A DNA stretch of 64,000 nt from an uncultured Desulfobacterales bacterium (GTDB lineage Bacteria > Desulfobacterota > Desulfobacteria > Desulfobacterales > B30-G6), in the NCBI GenBank assembly GCA_964633115.1, contig CAZWEO010000004.1, positions 276 to 64,275 on the forward strand, written 5' to 3'. The translations under genes and the position numbers were made by a program. Positions 2,729-62,201 of the stretch are shown in pieces. Below the pieces are notes generated by a model. That model searched no databases. It saw nothing but the letters and a program-made list of their open reading frames with translations, and was not told where the DNA came from. The number at the start of each line of letters is the position of its first letter. Position 1 is the stretch's first letter.

Positions 2729-3577
2729 TTATTTTGTTATGCGATATTGAATAAATTTTTCCGCCCGGTAGGACAGGGGGATATCTACGATGGTTTTAAC
2801 CAGATCGTTCACCAATGCGGACTGGCCGTCATAGATACCAAATATGCCTTCCTTAAACTTGGCGGCATTAAAAAACAAAGGTTCTTTTAAGGCCAACACA
2901 TGAAACATCTCATCGGTATGCTGCTGACCTTCATTTAGAAACGCTTCCAGCGTAATACCTTTTTTGCGATCATTGTTACCTGGAAAAATGAACTGTGTAT
3001 TTGCCTTAATAAAATTGTTTTGATTGAAACGATTGGGGAAAAGAACAATCACGGTTTCATCTTCCAAGACATTAAAAATAGTCACATAGCAGTCTTTGCT
3101 CGGTGTAACCTGAAGTTCAATCTGATCGCCTTCCCTGTAAACCGTCCGGTTTGCCTTGGCCTCCAGTCGAAAAAAGGCGTCTGTACGCCCGATTTCCTTG
3201 GCCACCTGCGCCCTGATTTTAACTTTATACGCCAAAAAGGGTACGTCGCCCTTTTTTTCGGCCGGGATCAATTCAATATCTTCGTTTAGAATCTCAATCC
3301 CGATGACCTTGCCATGGGGAATGGCCCGAATCACATCGCTGGTTACGTTATAGTTGATCACCATGGTTTCAGCTAGCAAATCAACGCCCACGACTTTTTC
3401 GACAGCCTCACGGCGGGCGTTGTTGATGGCTAGTTTGCGAGCCTCGGTTTTGGTCACATTTTCTATGGGTGCAAAGCCTTCAACGGTAACCCACGTTGTT
3501 TCTTGCGCAAACAACGTCCCTGAAGGGAAACCAGCGAGTATCACCACAAATGCCCAAACAATTATAAGTTTTATCAT
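2729..3577 (-). CDS. LPP20-like / DUF4384 domain protein (exported)
   Basis: Signal peptide MIKLIIVWAFVVILAGFPSGTLFA. The C-terminal half (YREGDQIELQVTPSKDCYVTIFNVLEDETVIVLFPN) matches the DUF4384 pattern that commonly accompanies bacterial caspase domains. Confidence 0.7.
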   Translation of the reverse strand: MIKLIIVWAFVVILAGFPSGTLFAQETTWVTVEGFAPIENVTKTEARKLAINNARREAVEKVVGVDLLAETMVINYNVTSDVIRAIPHGKVIGIEILNEDIELIPAEKKGDVPFLAYKVKIRAQVAKEIGRTDAFFRLEAKANRTVYREGDQIELQVTPSKDCYVTIFNVLEDETVIVLFPNRFNQNNFIKANTQFIFPGNNDRKKGITLEAFLNEGQQHTDEMFHVLALKEPLFFNAAKFKEGIFGIYDGQSALVNDLVKTIVDIPLSYRAEKFIQYRITK

Positions 3578-3607: not shown

Positions 3608-4918
3608 CTATTGTATTACCCTGGATACGGAAATATCCTTGAGGTCTTCCAGGGCGGGAGAAATGGTTGGCGTCTGTTCCTTACCCATGCGACGTGCAAC
3701 TCGAGTTACTTGTCGATTCACGTAGTCATATATTTCTTTGATGGTCACAAAGCGGTCTTCATTATCATCAGCCTGGCCTTTTAAGGCTTTTAGTAAATAA
3801 AATGTGAATAGCCCATGCTCTTCTCTGGGTAAGGGATTGCTGACTTGATCATTGGTCGCGGCACTGATGGATATTACCTCCTGGGTGGCCAAACCCACGT
3901 CTTCTACTTTTATAAGCGCCGGGCGAGTGCCTTTGGTGAGCATCTCGGCAGCTCTATTCGCCACGCCGCTAAAACAGGAATCCAAAAAAACATAGGCTTG
4001 ATTCACATTCAGATCATAAATCGCCTTGTAAAAATCTTTCAATTTGTAGCCTGTCTCTTCAATAAACAAGGTGTCGCCATCATAGGGTACCAGGTATGGT
4101 TCCCCTTTTTGCATATCAGGCGCCCCATGCCCGGCAAAATATACATACAGCGTGGTTTCTCTGCTGACATTATTTGGGATATAGCGTTTAAGATAGCCAG
4201 CTATTCTGGCTCTGGTGGCATCACTGTCAATCAGTGTTATAATATTCTCTTCAGGTACGCCCAATATTTGGTTGAAATACTCTTTAATTACGAGAGCATC
4301 TTTGCGGGCATAGTCGACTCTGGGCAGGTGGGCATAGTCTTCAACACCGATAATTAATCCCCAATCGTCAGGAAAAATTCGCTTACTCGTGGATACTGGA
4401 ACTGCAACGGGTACAACTTTTTTTGTCGCTATGATTGAAAAGTTTTTGCTCTCCAGGACTTCATTATCAAAAAACACCTTAAGCCGCCACTCTCCCGGCA
4501 TCTCTTGGGCCTTGTCACCCTTTATAGACAGGCTGTGCCAGGGGGTGCATTTGGGGATATAGTTTCCTCGACTGGCTTTAATGCGGGTGTTACCAGTCGT
4601 ATAATACAACTTGCCATCCGGGCTATACCAATCCCAGCGAATTTTATGATCTCCGGAAAGATTTTCAAGATTCAGATGCGCGTAAACAGCTTTGTCATCA
4701 GCGTCAAACCGGTTCGTTACCATGGTGGGCATATCTAATTTGCCGCTGCTTTTAACGCCCTTGGACAGTGTGGTTCCGGCATATTGAAATTTGGGCGTCT
4801 TCTGAATGGTTTTTGAACCACCACAACAAACCATCGTGATAGCTATACATAATGATATGAAGAGCATGATTAAACGACGAAAACATGAATGGGCAGATCT
4901 ATGACAGGCTGAATTCAT
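3608..4918 (-). CDS. Caspase-family (peptidase C14) protein, exported/lipoprotein
   Basis: His-Cys dyad contexts LYVYFAGHGAPD and VFLDSCFSG. N-terminal hydrophobic signal with CCGGS. An Ig-like N-terminal domain precedes the protease domain. Confidence 0.8.
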   Translation of the reverse strand: MNSACHRSAHSCFRRLIMLFISLCIAITMVCCGGSKTIQKTPKFQYAGTTLSKGVKSSGKLDMPTMVTNRFDADDKAVYAHLNLENLSGDHKIRWDWYSPDGKLYYTTGNTRIKASRGNYIPKCTPWHSLSIKGDKAQEMPGEWRLKVFFDNEVLESKNFSIIATKKVVPVAVPVSTSKRIFPDDWGLIIGVEDYAHLPRVDYARKDALVIKEYFNQILGVPEENIITLIDSDATRARIAGYLKRYIPNNVSRETTLYVYFAGHGAPDMQKGEPYLVPYDGDTLFIEETGYKLKDFYKAIYDLNVNQAYVFLDSCFSGVANRAAEMLTKGTRPALIKVEDVGLATQEVISISAATNDQVSNPLPREEHGLFTFYLLKALKGQADDNEDRFVTIKEIYDYVNRQVTRVARRMGKEQTPTISPALEDLKDISVSRVIQ

Positions 4919-8996: not shown

Positions 8997-10199
8997 CTAT
9001 GAGGTAAATGCAGCCGCTACCCATCCCACCAATACCAAAAGCATGGCTCCGGCCTGGATAGGTATGGCCACCCGCATCTCCTTTTCAACGCCTGAGGGAG
9101 AGGTATAGGGGGTCGACCCCGTAAAGTTCATTGCCAAATAGGATGAAATCGTAACAATCAGTAGGATCAAAGTTACCGATTCCATCAGGTTGACCGTATT
9201 GCCCAGTCCCAACAGCATGGCGATTGCCAACACAAGTCCGGTAATCGAGCCTTTTAGGGCAAATGCCCGTACCGGTATCCATGGGAGTAGGATAGGTGCC
9301 GCGACTGCACCCGCGAAAATACCCAAGAAGCAGCCAGCCCATATAATAATCCCGCGAGTCCAGGCCATGTTTATCGAGAAAAAATCAGAACCGATACCGG
9401 AAAGCAAAAATCCGGCGAGTATACTCCAGAGCAGGTACTTACGTAAAAAATTAAGCTCCACCGGCACCAGCACCAACCGCTCCAGCAAATTGAATGTTAG
9501 CATGCGCATTCTTCTGTCGGCCTTCATATCAGCCAGGAGGAAAGCACGGATATCAGTTGTCCGAATGGGTCCCCATATCACCTTAAAGCCGCACCCGCGC
9601 CTGACCTGCTTAGCGGAAACGCCGGTTGCAGACAATTGCGGCAGTATCAGTTTCTTATGGTTGACAACTTCCTCCAGGTGGCTCTGTTTGACACGCTGAA
9701 CAACTTCTTGGCTGGAAAATGTTTTTTTTCCGGCGGCACACCAAACATTAATGCCGCGGGTGTCCAAAACTAGTATCCAGGCATCCACACCGGATAGCTC
9801 TTTGCGCAGCAAGTCAAATGTAAGTTTGTAGTTGGCTGTTACCAATACAGGTGACGTTTCATTTGCATCACCGATACAATATAAACCGGGCGCAACTTTA
9901 TACTGATCACGGTTCACCCCCAGTCTCACCTTAACCAAGCCGAAACGGTCGCTAGCAGTGAGCTCACTTTTAATTTTAGGGATCGCGCCGGCCGGAGTCT
10001 GTCTAAAGGATTCTACAAAGGGACACAGATCATAACCCGGTCGCTCAAATACACTGCTGGCAGGACCTGCTGGGGGACCGCAACAAACCTTCTCTGCAGG
10101 CTCTTGGTTATGAATAGGAAAAAATTCGCTTAGTCCATCAGACCTACCGAATGCCTTATCCGATCCGCAGCAGCTTTCTTTTGGTCGCTGTGTTTCCAT
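8997..10199 (-). CDS. hgcA: HgcA, corrinoid protein of the mercury methylation pair
   Basis: Contains the diagnostic cap-helix motif GINVWCAAGKKTF. The N-terminal soluble corrinoid-binding-like domain is followed by about 5 hydrophobic C-terminal helices. The N-terminus has CC pairs (ESCCGSD, KVCCGPP). Confidence 0.9.
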   Translation of the reverse strand: METQRPKESCCGSDKAFGRSDGLSEFFPIHNQEPAEKVCCGPPAGPASSVFERPGYDLCPFVESFRQTPAGAIPKIKSELTASDRFGLVKVRLGVNRDQYKVAPGLYCIGDANETSPVLVTANYKLTFDLLRKELSGVDAWILVLDTRGINVWCAAGKKTFSSQEVVQRVKQSHLEEVVNHKKLILPQLSATGVSAKQVRRGCGFKVIWGPIRTTDIRAFLLADMKADRRMRMLTFNLLERLVLVPVELNFLRKYLLWSILAGFLLSGIGSDFFSINMAWTRGIIIWAGCFLGIFAGAVAAPILLPWIPVRAFALKGSITGLVLAIAMLLGLGNTVNLMESVTLILLIVTISSYLAMNFTGSTPYTSPSGVEKEMRVAIPIQAGAMLLVLVGWVAAAFTS

Positions 10200-41190: not shown

Positions 41191-41260
41191 CATTGCAAAA
41201 AACCAAATTTCCGATCGACAGATTAGATCAGGTTTTCAACATAGATCGTATTAATTTCTA

Positions 41261-41881
41261 ATGAAGATTCTCGTATTTCAACAAAACCAAAGTGGTGAAA
41301 GTAAAATCGCTGGGATTCGCAAATATGGCGGCGATCAATTTGAAATTATCACTATTTCCATCGACGCAGAACTGCCCCCTATCATCGATGATGCCCGCGA
41401 GTACTTGCCCCAGCATATCGAAGCCGACCTGGTACTCGATTTTTTAAAACATCCGGACCTCTCGCACGATCTGGCCAGGCTGTGTGCAGACCAGGAAATC
41501 CCGGTGGTTGCATCCGGCAAAAAGCATTCCGGAACCTGTGTTATCACCCCGCCCACCTGATGCGGCCTTTCCAGGCCGGGCTGCTTGGGAAGCTATGAGG
41601 AACGTTTTGGTGCACCAGAGGTGGATGTTGATGTTGTCGACGGTAAGATTCAACGCATAACTGTCACGCGGGGCGCACCATGTGGCGCCACATGGGAAGC
41701 GGCCCAAAAAATGATTAGTAAAGATGCGGCCGATGCCCCCACACGCTTTGGCTTGGAAGTTCAATTTTTCTGCAGTGCCGATCCGGCTGGATGGGATCCC
41801 ATCCATGGCAAAAGCCCGGTTCACTTTGCGGGCCACATTCATCAGGCCGCGCTCAAAAAGGCACTCAAAAATAAATCCTAA
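41261..41881 (+). CDS. DUF166-like protein, probable selenoprotein (in-frame TGA at 41558-41560 read as Sec)
   Basis: ORFs 41261..41560 and 41585..41881 are in the same frame, separated only by one TGA and 8 sense codons. Read-through gives 206 aa with ...VITPPT-U-CGLSRPGC... The later GAPCGATW, FFCSADP and VHFAGHI blocks look like DUF166. A SECIS-like hairpin follows the TGA. Confidence 0.6.
41567..41592 (+). promoter_or_regulatory. Candidate bacterial SECIS hairpin for the TGA at 41558
   Basis: C TTTCCAGG CCGGGCTG CTTGGGAA G: a 9-bp stem (including 2 G-U pairs) with an 8-nt loop. The loop GGG lies 18-20 nt after the TGA. Confidence 0.5.
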
Positions 41882-58543: not shown

Positions 58544-59488
58544 TTACCTTAGCTTTTTTGTCTTGACTCTCGCCTGTTCAGCCCGACGTTCCTCTCCCAC
58601 TCTTAGCAACATTTCACGATTTTCCGCTGAAACTTGCATAAAATTCGTGCGCCAGGATTCGTCTTCGGACCAGATAAAGGGTGCCTGGACCGTGGTTCGC
58701 GGCTGCCAGGCATATTCAAGCAGATCCAGCACCATTGCCATGATGGCACGTTGCATTTCCTTATCCCAAGGCCTACCAAATGGATTCCCCAATGGAAAGT
58801 CCGTGAACAGAAAACGGGCTACGCCGCACTCTTCAACGATATCTCGAGCAGACCCCACCACAATAGTAGGGATACTATTTTCTTCCAGATGTCGGGCGAC
58901 CAGACTCACGGTCTGGTGACACACCGGTCAAAGGGCCGGTAAAATCATGGCTTCAACTTTATCCTCTTGGCAAAGGGAAAGAACTCGGGGGGCAGATTTT
59001 TTGGATGTTTTGCCTTGGCTGTAGTCGGTCATGACACCGTAGAATCGGGGCGAGGCTAAACCGATTCTGCCTTCAGTAGCACATTCCGCCAGCCGATTCA
59101 GGGGCATAAAGCTGCCATTATCATCTGTGTGGGTAGCTTCCTGATCCCATTGTAGGTCCTGGGTGTAGAAATGCTCGGGGGCATCCACCACCTGATGGGC
59201 AAACACTTTGCGGGTCAGATGCCGTTCCTGCTTACTTTTACCGGGCGGCTTTTCAAGATCGGCCGTGGTCAGCAATCCGATTCGGCATTCGGAAAGCGGT
59301 TTGACCAGTTTGGCGAAGGGAACCTCTTTATGCGCAACCCATTTATAGGGCTGTGTGTAGCCATGGGCGGCATAATATTCCCTGGAACGGTCGATGTAGT
59401 TCACAAATGAACTGTTGGATCGACGTTTGATCATGTCGTCTATCCTATTATATGTGGTGAGGGTCTTTTTGGGAATGGTTTTTGGCAT
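58544..59488 (-). CDS. GrdB-family (glycine/sarcosine/betaine reductase selenoprotein B-like) protein, probable selenoprotein (TGA at 58930-58928 read as Sec)
   Basis: ORFs 58928..59488 and 58544..58924 are in one frame, separated by a single TGA. Read-through gives 314 aa with ...EAMILPAL-U-PVCHQTVSLVARHLEENSIPTIVV..., a UxxC motif in a GRDB-like context. A SECIS-like hairpin follows. RBS GGGAGGG upstream. Confidence 0.7.
58896..58920 (-). promoter_or_regulatory. Candidate bacterial SECIS hairpin for the TGA at 58930-58928
   Basis: On the minus strand: ACCAGAC CGTGA GTCTGGT (58917-58899). The 7-bp perfect stem starts 11 nt after the TGA. The loop G/U residues lie 19-21 nt after it. Confidence 0.55.
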
Positions 59489-59599: not shown

Positions 59600-61036
59600 T
59601 CATTTCGCGTCACCTGAATCCCGCGACTTTAGAAGTTCGTCCCAAACTGTTTGAACCCGACTTTTAGTCTCTTCAAGCGAACCCTCATTTTCAATTACAA
59701 AATCCGCATAACTGGTTTTTTCATCGATGGGAAGCTGGGACTTCATGACGTTTTCGGCTTCGGCCATGGATATACCATCACGTTCCGCCAGCCTTTTGGC
59801 CTGGGTATCGGGTTTAACATAAACCACTAGCAGTTTGTCGAAAAGAAACTGTAGGTTCTGTTCGATGAGCAGGGGTACCGACACCTGGATTACTGCATCG
59901 GGTTGATCTTGTGTGATCTGTTCAATCGCTTTGAAAAATTCGTCGTAAATATAGGGGTGGGTGAAGCTTTCCAGTTTTTTACGTTTCTCTAAATCACCAA
60001 ATACAATGCCGGACAGCTTTTTGCGATCCAATTCACCATTTTCCTGCAAGACCTGCTTACCGAAATAATCCACAATCTGCTTATAGCCCTGAGTTCCCTG
60101 CGCCACAACTTTTCTGGCTAGTAGATCAAAATCGATCAAGGACGATCCCAATTCTGTCAGCATGTCGGACACGGTTGACTTGCCGCTGGCGATTCCGCCG
60201 GTAACGCCCAGCAGCAGGTGTTTGCCTTTGATCCTTTTCATGATATCCTCCAGACCGGCATAGGTGGCCGGAAACATGGGACCCACATCCCCTTCGGCAC
60301 CGGCATAACTGATGGGATAGCGCACACCCCGCCGATATAGTGTCTCCAAGCCTGCCAGCGCTTTGGCCATCATACCTCTAGGCAGGGCCATCACCAGGTC
60401 CTCGTCCTGGGCATGTCCGTAGCGGCGCTCGCCATAGCAGGGAATACTCAGGGATGGTTTACCGGTTTGATAGCTGCGGACGATGGCATCCGAGCAGGAG
60501 GATTCGCCCACACAAAAAAACTGCATCACCTCATAATCCTCAAATTGCAATGCATTGATCAGCAAGATCATCTGAGCCGGGTTGGCATATATGAGCACGA
60601 TGTCAGGCTCAAAAGGCTTATATACCAAGGGTGCCATGACCACGGCCTCATATTTTCCCAACGGCAATCTGGGTATGGCCGCCTCGAACTTGCGCGCATC
60701 CTTTTTGGTCTTGACCCAGACGATGCTTCGGAAAGTACCATCCTTGCAGATCTCGGGGACATCGCAGAGTCCGATGATGGAGGGGCAGGCTGAAAACAAA
60801 AAGTCATCCAGATCAGCGCCCACGGTCCAGTCAAAGTTGCGTACCCGTGTAATCAACTGGCACAAGGTCGTCTTTTTGCTACTGCGACGCAAAAAGGGAA
60901 TATGTTCAAGCTCGGATTTGTCGGTTAACATCTTAAATGCCACCGGAAATGATTTCAGACGGAGCAGTTGCTCCATGCGTCTAACCACTTTTTCCCAGTC
61001 TATTGGCTTAAGTGACTGCGGACTATCTGGCATCAT
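59600..61036 (-). CDS. coaE: DUF169 domain fused to dephospho-CoA kinase (CoaE)
   Basis: The N-terminal ~270 aa are DUF169-like (FPVAFKML...TLCQLITRVRNFDW...CYGERRYG). The C-terminal ~200 aa are CoaE (LGVTGGIASGKSTVSDML, HPYIY, PLLIE). AAGGAG precedes the ATGATG at 61036/61033. Confidence 0.8.
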   Translation of the reverse strand: MMPDSPQSLKPIDWEKVVRRMEQLLRLKSFPVAFKMLTDKSELEHIPFLRRSSKKTTLCQLITRVRNFDWTVGADLDDFLFSACPSIIGLCDVPEICKDGTFRSIVWVKTKKDARKFEAAIPRLPLGKYEAVVMAPLVYKPFEPDIVLIYANPAQMILLINALQFEDYEVMQFFCVGESSCSDAIVRSYQTGKPSLSIPCYGERRYGHAQDEDLVMALPRGMMAKALAGLETLYRRGVRYPISYAGAEGDVGPMFPATYAGLEDIMKRIKGKHLLLGVTGGIASGKSTVSDMLTELGSSLIDFDLLARKVVAQGTQGYKQIVDYFGKQVLQENGELDRKKLSGIVFGDLEKRKKLESFTHPYIYDEFFKAIEQITQDQPDAVIQVSVPLLIEQNLQFLFDKLLVVYVKPDTQAKRLAERDGISMAEAENVMKSQLPIDEKTSYADFVIENEGSLEETKSRVQTVWDELLKSRDSGDAK

Positions 61037-61043
61037 GTTCTCC

Positions 61044-62201
61044 TTATTGCCTATGTTTGCGATACGCAAAGGGGCTATAATTGCCCTTTTTTAGCGCTGT
61101 CACAAGATCCTGCTCATTTTCTATGGTCTGCTGAAAACAGGTTACATACCTGCCCACATCCCCAATAGCATGGGCATCACTGCCGCCGGTGGCAGGCAGT
61201 TTCATGCCGGCGGCTACCTGGGCGGCAAAATCATTCTCCGGCCGGGTGACTTTGCCATTTAATACTTCTATTGCATCCACCGCTTGATAAACTTGGCGCT
61301 GCATGGCCTTTTCTACGGTCATGCCAATCTGACTGGTGTTGAAAACGAGGAAACCTCTGAATGGATGGGCGGCAATTACAAATCCGCCAGCAGTATCCAC
61401 CATCCCTCTAAGGTCGGCCAAGTTGATAATGCCTTTGACATCCTGGTACATCCCAAATACCAGCATGTCTCCCTGATCGGTGGTAATTTCATTACCCCTT
61501 ATAATTGGGAATCCATGTTTGTGTTTCAAATTTTCGATATCATTGAGAGACCACACATGGTTGTGGTCGGTAAGGCAGATGGCATCCAGACCGATCTTTT
61601 TAGCCTCAACGATCAGATCATCGATATTGACGGTGCTGCACTGGGAAGCCGGGTAAGAATGCATGTGCAGGTCAATATAGAAATCTCCGGATGCTTCTTC
61701 TTTGGATTCCCTACGAGGCTCTGCTATGAAAATATGCTCTGCCTGCTTGGATTCTGGCGCAATCGTAGGCTGTTTCTCCCTATCCTCACCCACTACATCA
61801 GCTAGATAGTCAGCAAACGTCAAATCGTTTTGTTCTTTGTGAGCGGCCGTGAATTGGATAACACCAACTGCTTCTTTGGCTGCCTGGCAACATTCCAACA
61901 ACAAATTGGCAAAGTGGGGACATGCTTGGCGGCTCACAACCTTGTTTATTTGTTGGCCCAGAGATTCATTGTCAATTTTAAATCCTTTAGCGACTTCCAT
62001 TAAAGGCAGGGCTCGCGAGCATTCGGGGGTTTCTTCCCGGTTCCATTTTCCCTGGATGGATGTAATTGTCATGTCGTCAATGCAGACCGTCAGATCGATC
62101 TCCAGGCCCCAAATATCGTCTTCCAGTAATCCATGAACGCGAACATCTTCAGAATTATCCTGATAGACACTGACCAGCTTGTTTCTCTGGAATTTGAGCA
62201 T
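61044..62201 (-). CDS. DUF2889 domain fused to a PHP-family phosphoesterase domain
   Basis: The N-terminal ~130 aa resemble DUF2889 (...ACPHFANLLLECCQAAKEA). The C-terminal part has the PHP motif YIDLHMHSYPASQCS, plus CLTDHN and GGSDAH. Confidence 0.75.
   Translation of the reverse strand: MLKFQRNKLVSVYQDNSEDVRVHGLLEDDIWGLEIDLTVCIDDMTITSIQGKWNREETPECSRALPLMEVAKGFKIDNESLGQQINKVVSRQACPHFANLLLECCQAAKEAVGVIQFTAAHKEQNDLTFADYLADVVGEDREKQPTIAPESKQAEHIFIAEPRRESKEEASGDFYIDLHMHSYPASQCSTVNIDDLIVEAKKIGLDAICLTDHNHVWSLNDIENLKHKHGFPIIRGNEITTDQGDMLVFGMYQDVKGIINLADLRGMVDTAGGFVIAAHPFRGFLVFNTSQIGMTVEKAMQRQVYQAVDAIEVLNGKVTRPENDFAAQVAAGMKLPATGGSDAHAIGDVGRYVTCFQQTIENEQDLVTALKKGNYSPFAYRKHRQ

What the first reader, a model, noticed from the sequence alone, without database searches (positions are those of the whole stretch)
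41261..41881. Split ORF pair is probably one DUF166-like selenoprotein (T-U-C) with a SECIS-like hairpin
The two listed ORFs (99 and 98 aa) are in the same frame. They are interrupted only by the TGA at 41558-41560. The 8 codons between the TGA and the second listed ORF are sense (CGLSRPGC). The second ORF's listed start is a TTG with no RBS. Downstream of the TGA lies a 9-bp stem with an 8-nt loop (41567-41592). Its loop Gs are 18-20 nt after the TGA, which is the geometry of bacterial SECIS elements. The Sec would sit next to a Cys (U-C), and I expect homologs to have a Cys-Cys pair at this position. Gene callers would annotate two fragments or a pseudogene. I do not know whether a Sec-containing DUF166 has been described.
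Basis: partly seen in the sequence, partly recalled or inferred. Interest (0 to 1): 0.7.

Follow-up and report, generated by a model that had tools for sequence, protein, structure and literature searches.

The report
Known DUF166 selenoprotein gene (DfsP)

Summary
ORF 41261-41560 ends at TGA 41558-41560. The frame stays open to 41881. A hairpin follows the TGA.

The 206-aa read-through is a full-length DUF166 domain. It scores 335 bits (cut-off 200) against NCBIfam NF041372, "DUF166 family (seleno)protein DfsP".

- Among the 120 closest full-length homologs, the aligned residue is Cys in 115 and a mistranslated TGA in 5. The next residue is always Cys.
- In 80 species-representative genomes the codon is TGA in 66 and TGC/TGT in 14.
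- The hairpin is conserved in register in all 67 TGA loci. Its loop GG is invariant and one pair covaries at synonymous sites. It decays in the Cys loci.
- The downstream half is under purifying selection (pN/pS about 0.2).
- The same TGA occurs in three independent assemblies.
- A second, unrelated Sec gene (GrdB/PrdB-like, 58544-59488, minus strand) lies in the window, which supports a Sec-decoding host.

selA/B/C/D were not found in the window and could not be checked genome-wide.

The family was reported as a selenoprotein in 2007 (COG1810, Zhang & Gladyshev). Its biochemical function is unknown. The best lead is a methanogen DUF166 needed for CODH/ACS-dependent CO2 fixation.

Verdict: interpretation supported, already known, low interest.

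The parts
41261..41881 (+). Single dfsP coding sequence of 206 codons plus stop, with one in-frame UGA (Sec100). It encodes a DUF166 family selenoprotein.
   Evidence: Translation. Pfam DUF166 1-220/221 at 153 bits. NCBIfam NF041372 DfsP at 335 bits against a cut-off of 200. pN/pS about 0.2 on both sides of the TGA against the closest orthologs.
41558..41560 (+). TGA read as selenocysteine (Sec100), followed directly by the family-invariant Cys101 (motif PPT-U-C-G-L).
   Evidence: The aligned residue is Cys in 115 of 120 homologs and 'W' in 5. The codon is TGA in 66 and TGC/TGT in 14 of 80 genomes. The same TGA occurs in three independent assemblies with 0 mismatches over 621 nt.
41568..41591 (+). 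SECIS-type hairpin inside the coding sequence. The conserved core helix is 41570-41576 with 41583-41589. The apical loop is 41577-41582 (CGGGCU), with the family-invariant GG at 41578-41579. Two extra window-specific pairs are 41568-41569 with 41590-41591.
   Evidence: RNAfold. Alignment A2 of 67 TGA loci. 93.2% of cells paired, covariation at columns 18/33, and slid controls at 23-61%. Only 66% paired and the GG not kept in the 14 Cys loci.
41561..41584 (+). Eight sense codons (CGLSRPGC) that join the two listed ORFs. They are coding sequence, not a spacer.
   Evidence: C101 and L103 are invariant and the segment aligns without gaps to all homologs.

Best explanation
41261-41881 is one gene, dfsP. 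It encodes a 206-residue DUF166-family selenoprotein.

During translation the UGA at 41558-41560 is recoded to selenocysteine. The hairpin that starts 7 nt after it (41568-41591, apical loop with GG) acts as a bacterial SECIS element. It would recruit SelB-GTP-Sec-tRNA(Sec) to the ribosome paused at the UGA. This recoding step is inferred from sequence comparison, not shown.

The Sec sits directly before Cys101. Cys101 is one of three cysteines (C101, C141, C171, plus His188) that are essentially invariant across the whole DUF166 superfamily. The Sec/Cys at position 100 is therefore a clade-specific extra residue at what looks like the metal-binding or redox centre.

My preferred inference is that U100-C101 forms a redox-active selenenylsulfide, or supplies a fourth selenolate ligand, at a Cys3(His) metal or Fe-S site. 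I infer that the protein serves as a redox or maturation accessory in anaerobic C1 (Wood-Ljungdahl-type) metabolism. That functional part is a hypothesis.
For: Shown here:
- Full-length match to the curated DfsP model: 335 bits against a cut-off of 200. One continuous DUF166 domain spans the TGA.
- A Cys-Cys pair in 115 of 120 close homologs.
- TGA at the identical codon in 66 of 80 species genomes. These include Desulfacinum infernum, Desulfonema magnum, Desulfoprunum benzoelyticum, Desulfoferrobacter suflitae and the Olavius Delta4 symbiont. The other 14 carry Cys codons.
- The hairpin is conserved in register. Both covarying positions are third codon positions (Ser/Pro codon and Leu codon), so protein constraint does not explain the covariation.
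- The hairpin and its loop GG decay in the Cys loci, except L041, which looks like a recent Sec-to-Cys change.
- pN/pS is 0.16-0.24 downstream of the TGA for the six closest gap-free orthologs (0.40 for the more distant L011) and 0.22-0.36 upstream.
- The TGA is identical in three independent assemblies.
- TGA is an ordinary stop in 8 of 45 other ORFs, so the genetic code is standard.
- A second Sec gene lies in the same window. Its TGA aligns with Cys in 114 of 115 homologs, and the 5 closest homologs end exactly there.
- Many 50%-cluster representatives end at profile position 108 or start at 117-118. This is the footprint of split Sec forms.

Active-site inference:
- C101, C141 and C171 are kept in 50-51 of 51 distant full-length DUF166 proteins, and H188 in 42 of 51.
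- Position 100 is C in 23, F in 15 and L in 5 of those 51, with other residues in the remaining 8.

Functional lead:
- A M. maripaludis DUF166 knockout cannot fix CO2. Its fitness pattern matches that of CODH/ACS and CooC2 (bioRxiv 10.1101/2024.03.05.583561).
- Here dfsP follows fhs and a B12-radical-SAM gene. In other loci it lies within about 4.3 kb of formate dehydrogenase genes, aldehyde:ferredoxin oxidoreductase, rubrerythrin or FeS+DUF3786 genes.
Against: - No selA, selB, selD or tRNA-Sec was found in the 64-kb window or in 10 kb beyond its end. The genome-wide Sec machinery is unverified.
- The window's hairpin alone is not statistically unusual (z = -0.85).
- No Rfam SECIS family matches it.
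- Selenium incorporation has not been shown experimentally for any DfsP, as far as I could find.
- The functional hypothesis is weak. No neighbour is conserved across the family; the commonest is present in only 17 of 80 loci.
- The high-confidence AF2 model (pLDDT 92.9, built on the Cys homolog P0001, 70% identical) has no significant PDB fold match: best E = 7e-3, TM 0.35 or less. There is no PDB sequence match either.
- The methanogen DUF166 is a distant relative, not an ortholog.
Confidence: 0.93

Rival explanations
1. Pseudogene. A nonsense mutation has inactivated a Cys-type DUF166 gene, and only the 99-aa N-terminal fragment, or nothing, is made.
For: Under the standard code the frame is interrupted. 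Gene callers output fragments. No Sec machinery is seen in the window.
Against: - The same TGA is kept in 66 of 80 species.
- The downstream half is under purifying selection as strong as the upstream half: pN/pS about 0.2 at pS of about 0.75.
- A structured element with covariation follows the TGA only in TGA-bearing loci.
Confidence: 0.02
2. A true split gene. Two separate polypeptides (99 aa and 98 aa) are made, the second starting at TTG 41585, and they assemble into one DUF166 fold.
For: Both fragments score individually against Pfam DUF166 (54 and 95 bits). They are called as separate genes in JGI assemblies.
Against: - The eight codons between the ORFs encode the invariant Cys101 and Leu103. 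These would be lost.
- The TTG has no convincing Shine-Dalgarno sequence.
- All 120 closest listed full-length homologs are single chains.
- The TTG aligns with the nearly invariant Leu109 (at least 90% conserved) of the LG.Y motif, which is an internal residue and not a start.
Confidence: 0.02
3. Sequencing or assembly error, or an alternative genetic code in which TGA is a sense codon (Trp or Gly).
For: Five database homologs show 'W' at the position. That is what a code-4 or code-25 translation would give.
Against: - Sequence is identical, including the TGA, in three independent assemblies.
- TGA terminates 8 of 45 other well-supported ORFs in the window. Long genes such as fusA, fhs and the ABC transporters are intact under table 11.
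- Homologs carry Cys, not Trp or Gly, at the site.
Confidence: 0.01

Closest known systems
NCBIfam NF041372 'DUF166 family (seleno)protein DfsP'. This is the 'conserved protein COG1810' selenoprotein of Zhang & Gladyshev 2007 (PMC1976440).
   Same: - End-to-end match (2-203/203) at 335 bits against a cut-off of 200.
- The Sec/Cys position matches that in the Olavius Delta4 symbiont ortholog (L029) and 65 other species.
- The in-frame hairpin has conserved G residues in the apical loop, as drawn for this family in that paper's Figure 5D legend.
   Different: Nothing of substance. The window's copy is at most 74% identical to any species-representative genome searched. Its loop is CGGGCU rather than the majority AGGNNN; the related loop CGGGCC is found in Desulfacinum. 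The 2007 paper found no Cys homologs, whereas many are now visible (14 of 80 genomes; 115 of 120 database proteins).
Pfam PF02593 (DUF166), the superfamily, including the M. maripaludis MMP_RS05055 protein needed for autotrophic CO2 fixation.
   Same: The domain is the same. The three family-wide cysteines (C101, C141, C171) and His188 are present.
   Different: In most distant members the residue aligned with Sec is Phe, Leu or another residue (28 of 51) rather than Cys. The vicinal U/C-C pair is therefore a feature of the deltaproteobacterial DfsP clade and some relatives. No CODH/ACS genes are adjacent here.
E. coli fdhF-type bacterial SECIS (SelB-binding hairpin directly 3' of the UGA).
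   Same: - The hairpin lies inside the ORF and starts within about 10 nt of the UGA.
- The apical-loop G residues lie 18-20 nt after the UGA.
- Conservation is tied to the presence of TGA.
   Different: - The sequence differs.
- No Rfam family matches.
- There is no conserved bulged U on the 5' side.
- 18 of the 65 distinct TGA sequences have C opposite U at pair 19/32 (not a standard pair). They can instead be drawn with a 3'-side bulged U.
Vicinal Cys-Sec redox centre of mammalian thioredoxin reductase (GCUG). From my own knowledge, not tested here.
   Same: An adjacent Sec and Cys could form an eight-membered selenenylsulfide ring.
   Different: The order is reversed (U-C, not C-U). The pair is internal, not C-terminal. 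The fold is unrelated. This is an analogy only.

Membership tests
NCBIfam NF041372 DfsP (DUF166 family selenoprotein) | Whole-protein HMM score above the curated equivalog cut-off | tested here: met
   335 bits against a cut-off of 200, E = 1.6e-100, model positions 2-203/203.
NCBIfam NF041372 DfsP (DUF166 family selenoprotein) | Sec (TGA) or Cys at the family's conserved position, directly before the invariant Cys (PPT-[U/C]-C-G-L) | tested here: met
   The window TGA aligns with TGA in 66 and TGC/TGT in 14 of 80 genomes. It aligns with Cys in 115 of 120 proteins.
Pfam PF02593 DUF166 | Full-length domain match above the gathering score, with the conserved Cys and His residues | tested here: met
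   153.4 bits against 24.4, profile 1-220/221. C101, C141, C171 and H188 are present.
Bacterial selenoprotein gene (general) | In-frame UGA with Cys-containing homologs aligned at that position | tested here: met
Bacterial selenoprotein gene (general) | SECIS hairpin immediately 3' of the UGA with G in the apical loop, conserved among Sec-form orthologs | tested here: met
   The helix at 41570-41576 with 41583-41589 is kept in 67 of 67 TGA loci. 93.2% of cells pair, the loop GG is invariant, and pair 18/33 covaries. The helix is degraded in the Cys loci. The single-sequence fold is not significant and there is no Rfam hit.
Bacterial selenoprotein gene (general) | The genome encodes SelA, SelB, SelD and tRNA-Sec (selC) | not testable with these tools
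   None are in the 64-kb window or in 10 kb beyond its end. The rest of the genome is not available. Indirect support comes from a second Sec-type gene in the same window.
Bacterial selenoprotein gene (general) | Selenium actually incorporated (75Se labelling or mass spectrometry) | not testable with these tools
   This is an experimental test.
Thymidylate synthase (the name JGI gives to many homologs) | Similarity to the ThyA or ThyX catalytic domains | tested here: not met
   The Pfam scan at E <= 0.01 returns only DUF166 for the full-length protein. No PDB sequence or fold match to any thymidylate synthase was found. The name appears to be a legacy annotation.

The most novel reading that the evidence does not exclude
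DfsP may be a selenium-dependent accessory factor for anaerobic C1 or metallo-enzyme metabolism. It would be a distant counterpart of the methanogen DUF166 protein required for CODH/ACS-dependent CO2 fixation. In this reading the clade-specific Sec100 next to the invariant Cys101 either forms a vicinal selenenylsulfide redox switch or supplies a selenolate ligand to a Cys3-His metal or Fe-S centre. That would give DUF166 its first biochemical role and explain why Desulfobacterota so often spend Sec on it (66 of 80 species).
Probability: 0.25. Interest if true: 0.5.

Novelty: already known. Interest (0 to 1): 0.12.

Why it matters
In practice this is an annotation fix. The two DUF166 fragments, and the spurious antisense ORF that one caller placed over them, should be merged into one selenoprotein CDS.

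It also marks the source organism, an uncultured Desulfobacterota-like bacterium, as a Sec user. At least two selenoprotein genes lie in 64 kb.

Scientifically it adds nothing new to the selenoproteome catalogue. The open question is what DUF166 proteins do. The pattern seen here could guide biochemistry: three family-invariant Cys plus one His, with Sec as a clade-specific neighbour of one of them.

Tried and rejected
- **Rfam.** The gathering scan of the whole window gave no hit. Permissive scans around both TGAs gave no SECIS family, only chance hits to a lncRNA and a snoRNA model at E of 0.58 or more. Bacterial SECIS elements are too family-specific for this to count against the finding.
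- **tRNA-Sec.** None was found in the window or in 42 related loci.
- **sel genes.** NCBIfam and Pfam annotation of about 40 window ORFs found none. Another 10 kb of the source contig beyond the window end held none. One look-up failed because the called start codon differed.
- **Structure route to function.** The AF2 model is good (pLDDT 92.9). Foldseek against the PDB gave nothing below E = 7e-3, only generic Rossmann/flavodoxin-like partial overlaps. A profile search of PDB sequences gave nothing below E = 0.26.
- **Conserved gene neighbourhood.** There is no family-wide partner. The window's fhs / B12-rSAM / dfsP / pspF arrangement is shared by only 7-13 close relatives.
- **Other in-frame TGA junctions.** A scan of the window gave 29 candidates. 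Apart from dfsP and the GrdB/PrdB-like gene, the others appeared to be off-frame or antisense artefacts; only a few were inspected individually.
- **Literature.** A search for 'DfsP' found no paper. The name seems to exist only in NCBIfam.

Full report
**1. The observation**

- An ATG at 41261 is preceded by an in-frame TAA at 41252-41254.
- It opens a 99-codon ORF that ends at TGA 41558-41560.
- The same frame continues through eight sense codons (CGLSRPGC) into the ORF listed from TTG 41585, which ends at TAA 41879-41881.

RNAfold pairs 41568-41576 with 41583-41591 around the loop CGGGCU. The loop Gs lie 18-20 nt after the TGA. On its own this hairpin is not exceptional for such G+C-rich coding sequence: z = -0.85, and 31 of 200 shuffles fold as well. 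The single-sequence observation is real but not significant by itself.

**2. What the gene is**

The read-through product (Sec written as Cys) is one complete DUF166 domain. Pfam PF02593 matches profile positions 1-220 of 221 at 153 bits. The two fragments alone cover only 1-90 and 129-220.

Against NCBIfam it matches NF041372, "DUF166 family (seleno)protein DfsP". This is an equivalog-level model. The score is 335 bits against a cut-off of 200, end to end. The family is therefore already curated as a selenoprotein family.

**3. Comparative evidence for Sec**

A search of 5.8 billion proteins gave 1354 relatives.
- The 120 best are 58-70% identical, and those that carry an organism name are Desulfobacterota.
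- The residue aligned with the TGA is Cys in 115 of them. It is 'W' in 5, which is a TGA translated under a wrong code. The following residue is Cys in all 120.

At the DNA level, 80 species-representative genomes were retrieved.
- The best is 74% identical, so the source genome itself is not among them.
- The codon is TGA in 66 genomes and TGC/TGT in 14.
- Carriers of TGA include Desulfacinum infernum, Desulfonema magnum, Desulfoprunum benzoelyticum, Desulfoferrobacter suflitae and the Olavius algarvensis Delta4 symbiont.

In a search of 50%-identity cluster representatives, many entries end at profile position 108 or begin at 117-118. That is the footprint of Sec forms split by gene callers.

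**4. The SECIS element**

The 48 nt around the TGA align without gaps in all 67 TGA loci. The helix formed by columns 16-22 and 29-35 corresponds to window 41570-41576 and 41583-41589.
- 93.2% of cells are paired, against 23-61% when the 3' partner is slid by 1-3 columns. None of 500 shuffles reaches the observed pairing or covariation score.
- Pair 18/33 is C-G in 45, G-C in 12 and A-U in 8 sequences and is never broken. Both columns are third codon positions (a Ser/Pro codon and a Leu codon). Protein constraint therefore cannot explain the covariation.
- The second and third loop bases (GG, window 41578-41579) are invariant.
- In the 14 Cys loci only 66% of cells pair and the GG is often lost. 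The exception is L041, which keeps a perfect hairpin and looks like a recent Sec-to-Cys change.
- 18 of the 65 distinct TGA sequences have C at column 19 opposite U32, which is not a standard pair. They can be redrawn with a bulged U.

Rfam holds no matching family.

**5. Rival readings**

*Pseudogene.* pN/pS against six of the seven closest orthologs (L005 is uninformative because of an indel) is 0.16-0.24 downstream of the TGA and 0.22-0.36 upstream, at pS of about 0.75. The more distant L011 gives 0.40 downstream. The 3' half is as constrained as the 5' half.

*Sequencing error.* Three independent assemblies (one ENA, two JGI samples) carry the identical 621 nt, including the TGA.

*Alternative genetic code.* TGA terminates 8 of 45 other ORFs in the window. 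Long housekeeping genes are intact under table 11.

*Two separate proteins.* The linking codons encode the invariant Cys101 and Leu103. The TTG aligns with an internal, nearly invariant Leu (at least 90% conserved).

In one assembly they output the first fragment plus a spurious 132-aa antisense ORF.

**6. Sec machinery**

No tRNA gene is found in the window. No selA, selB or selD is among about 40 annotated ORFs. None is in the 10 kb of the source contig beyond the window end. This criterion stays untested.

There is indirect support from a second in-frame TGA, which I found by scanning the window. On the minus strand, ORF 59488-58931 (186 aa) ends at TGA 58928-58930, and the frame stays open for 127 more codons to 58544.
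- The read-through matches the PrdB/GrdB selenoprotein-B superfamily across the TGA, though below the family cut-offs.
- The TGA is followed by a 7-bp hairpin with z = -2.29.
- It aligns with Cys in 114 of 115 full-length homologs (motif L-[U/C]-PVCHQT). The five closest homologs (75-81% identical) end exactly at that point.

Two independent Sec-type genes in 64 kb make a Sec-decoding host very likely.

**7. How the protein may work**

An AlphaFold2 model of the 70%-identical Cys homolog P0001 is confident (pLDDT 92.9, pTM 0.87).
- It has no significant fold match in the PDB: best E = 7e-3, TM 0.35 or less, only partial Rossmann/flavodoxin-like overlaps with the N-terminal half.
- It has no sequence match in the PDB.

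Among 51 distant full-length DUF166 representatives, C101, C141 and C171 are kept in 50-51 and H188 in 42. The Sec position is C in 23, F in 15 and L in 5, with other residues in the remaining 8. Sec is therefore a clade-specific addition next to a family-invariant Cys, in what is probably a Cys3(His) metal or Fe-S or redox site.

I infer, without proof, either a vicinal selenenylsulfide or an extra selenolate ligand.

The only experimental handle on DUF166 that I found comes from Methanococcus maripaludis. Its duf166 knockout cannot fix CO2. Its fitness pattern matches that of CODH/ACS and CooC2 (bioRxiv 10.1101/2024.03.05.583561).

Gene context here is compatible with C1 or redox metabolism but is not conserved.
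- In the window, dfsP follows fhs and a B12-binding radical-SAM gene and converges on pspF.
- Across the 80 loci, the recurrent genes within about 4.3 kb are an ABC-F ATPase (17 loci), an unannotated 128-aa protein (15), an FeS+DUF3786 protein (14), rubrerythrin (13), aldehyde:ferredoxin oxidoreductase (12) and formate dehydrogenase subunits (11-12).

**8. Comparison with what is known, and verdict**

The DUF166/COG1810 selenoprotein was reported by Zhang & Gladyshev in 2007 from the Olavius symbionts, with a predicted SECIS (PMC1976440). It is listed in the 2022 and 2026 reviews of prokaryotic selenoproteomes, the latter citing NF041372.

The window's gene meets every membership feature that could be tested. 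It differs only in sequence detail.

The feature is already known, and its main value is correct annotation. Interest is low. The residual novelty lies in the still unknown biochemistry of DUF166.

Noticed in passing
window 58544-59488 (minus strand); TGA at 58928-58930; hairpin about 58898-58916: A second split ORF that is really a selenoprotein: 186 aa + U + 127 aa, a GrdB/PrdB-like 'selenoprotein B' relative with the motif L-U-P-V-C-H-Q-T. The TGA aligns with Cys in 114 of 115 full-length homologs. The 5 closest homologs end exactly there. A 7-bp hairpin follows the TGA (z = -2.29). JGI calls it as 186-aa and 121-aa fragments. It scores below the PrdB and GrdB family cut-offs, so it is a distinct subfamily, often named 'glycine reductase' in Bradyrhizobium.
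   Followed up: yes
window 8997-10199 (minus strand): A mercury-methylation corrinoid protein HgcA: NF040863 at 436.6 bits against a cut-off of 275. The organism is a likely mercury methylator. I did not look for the partner ferredoxin HgcB next to it.
   Followed up: no
window 12983-14716 (minus strand): IspH (residues 1-278) fused to a UbiA-type prenyltransferase-like C-terminal half (residues about 296-568). This is an unusual domain fusion.
   Followed up: no
window 59600-61069 (minus strand): A fusion of DUF169 (COG2043) with dephospho-CoA kinase CoaE. It lies directly next to the GrdB/PrdB-like selenoprotein gene.
   Followed up: no
window 3608-4918 (minus strand), with neighbours 312-2261 and 2729-3577: A caspase-like protein: the EACC1-associated caspase model gives 85 bits, below its cut-off. 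It sits beside two large ORFs with no family match. This could be a defence or programmed-cell-death-type module.
   Followed up: no
L041:5332-5379 (Desulfobulbaceae MAG), compared with the other Cys loci: A Cys-form (TGT) dfsP ortholog still carries a perfect SECIS-type hairpin with the AGG loop. This suggests a very recent Sec-to-Cys replacement. The other Cys-form loci have lost the helix.
   Followed up: partly
L061 and related loci, about 2.5-3.6 kb upstream of dfsP: The formate dehydrogenase alpha subunit appears as two ORFs (348 aa ending ...NVDHCARY, then 529 aa). This is consistent with another split Sec gene (FdhA) next to dfsP in some genomes. I did not check the junction codon.
   Followed up: no
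window 41444-41842 (minus strand): A 132-aa antisense ORF lies over dfsP. One public assembly calls it as a gene (L081). It has no family hit and is almost certainly an artefact of the split dfsP call.
   Followed up: partly
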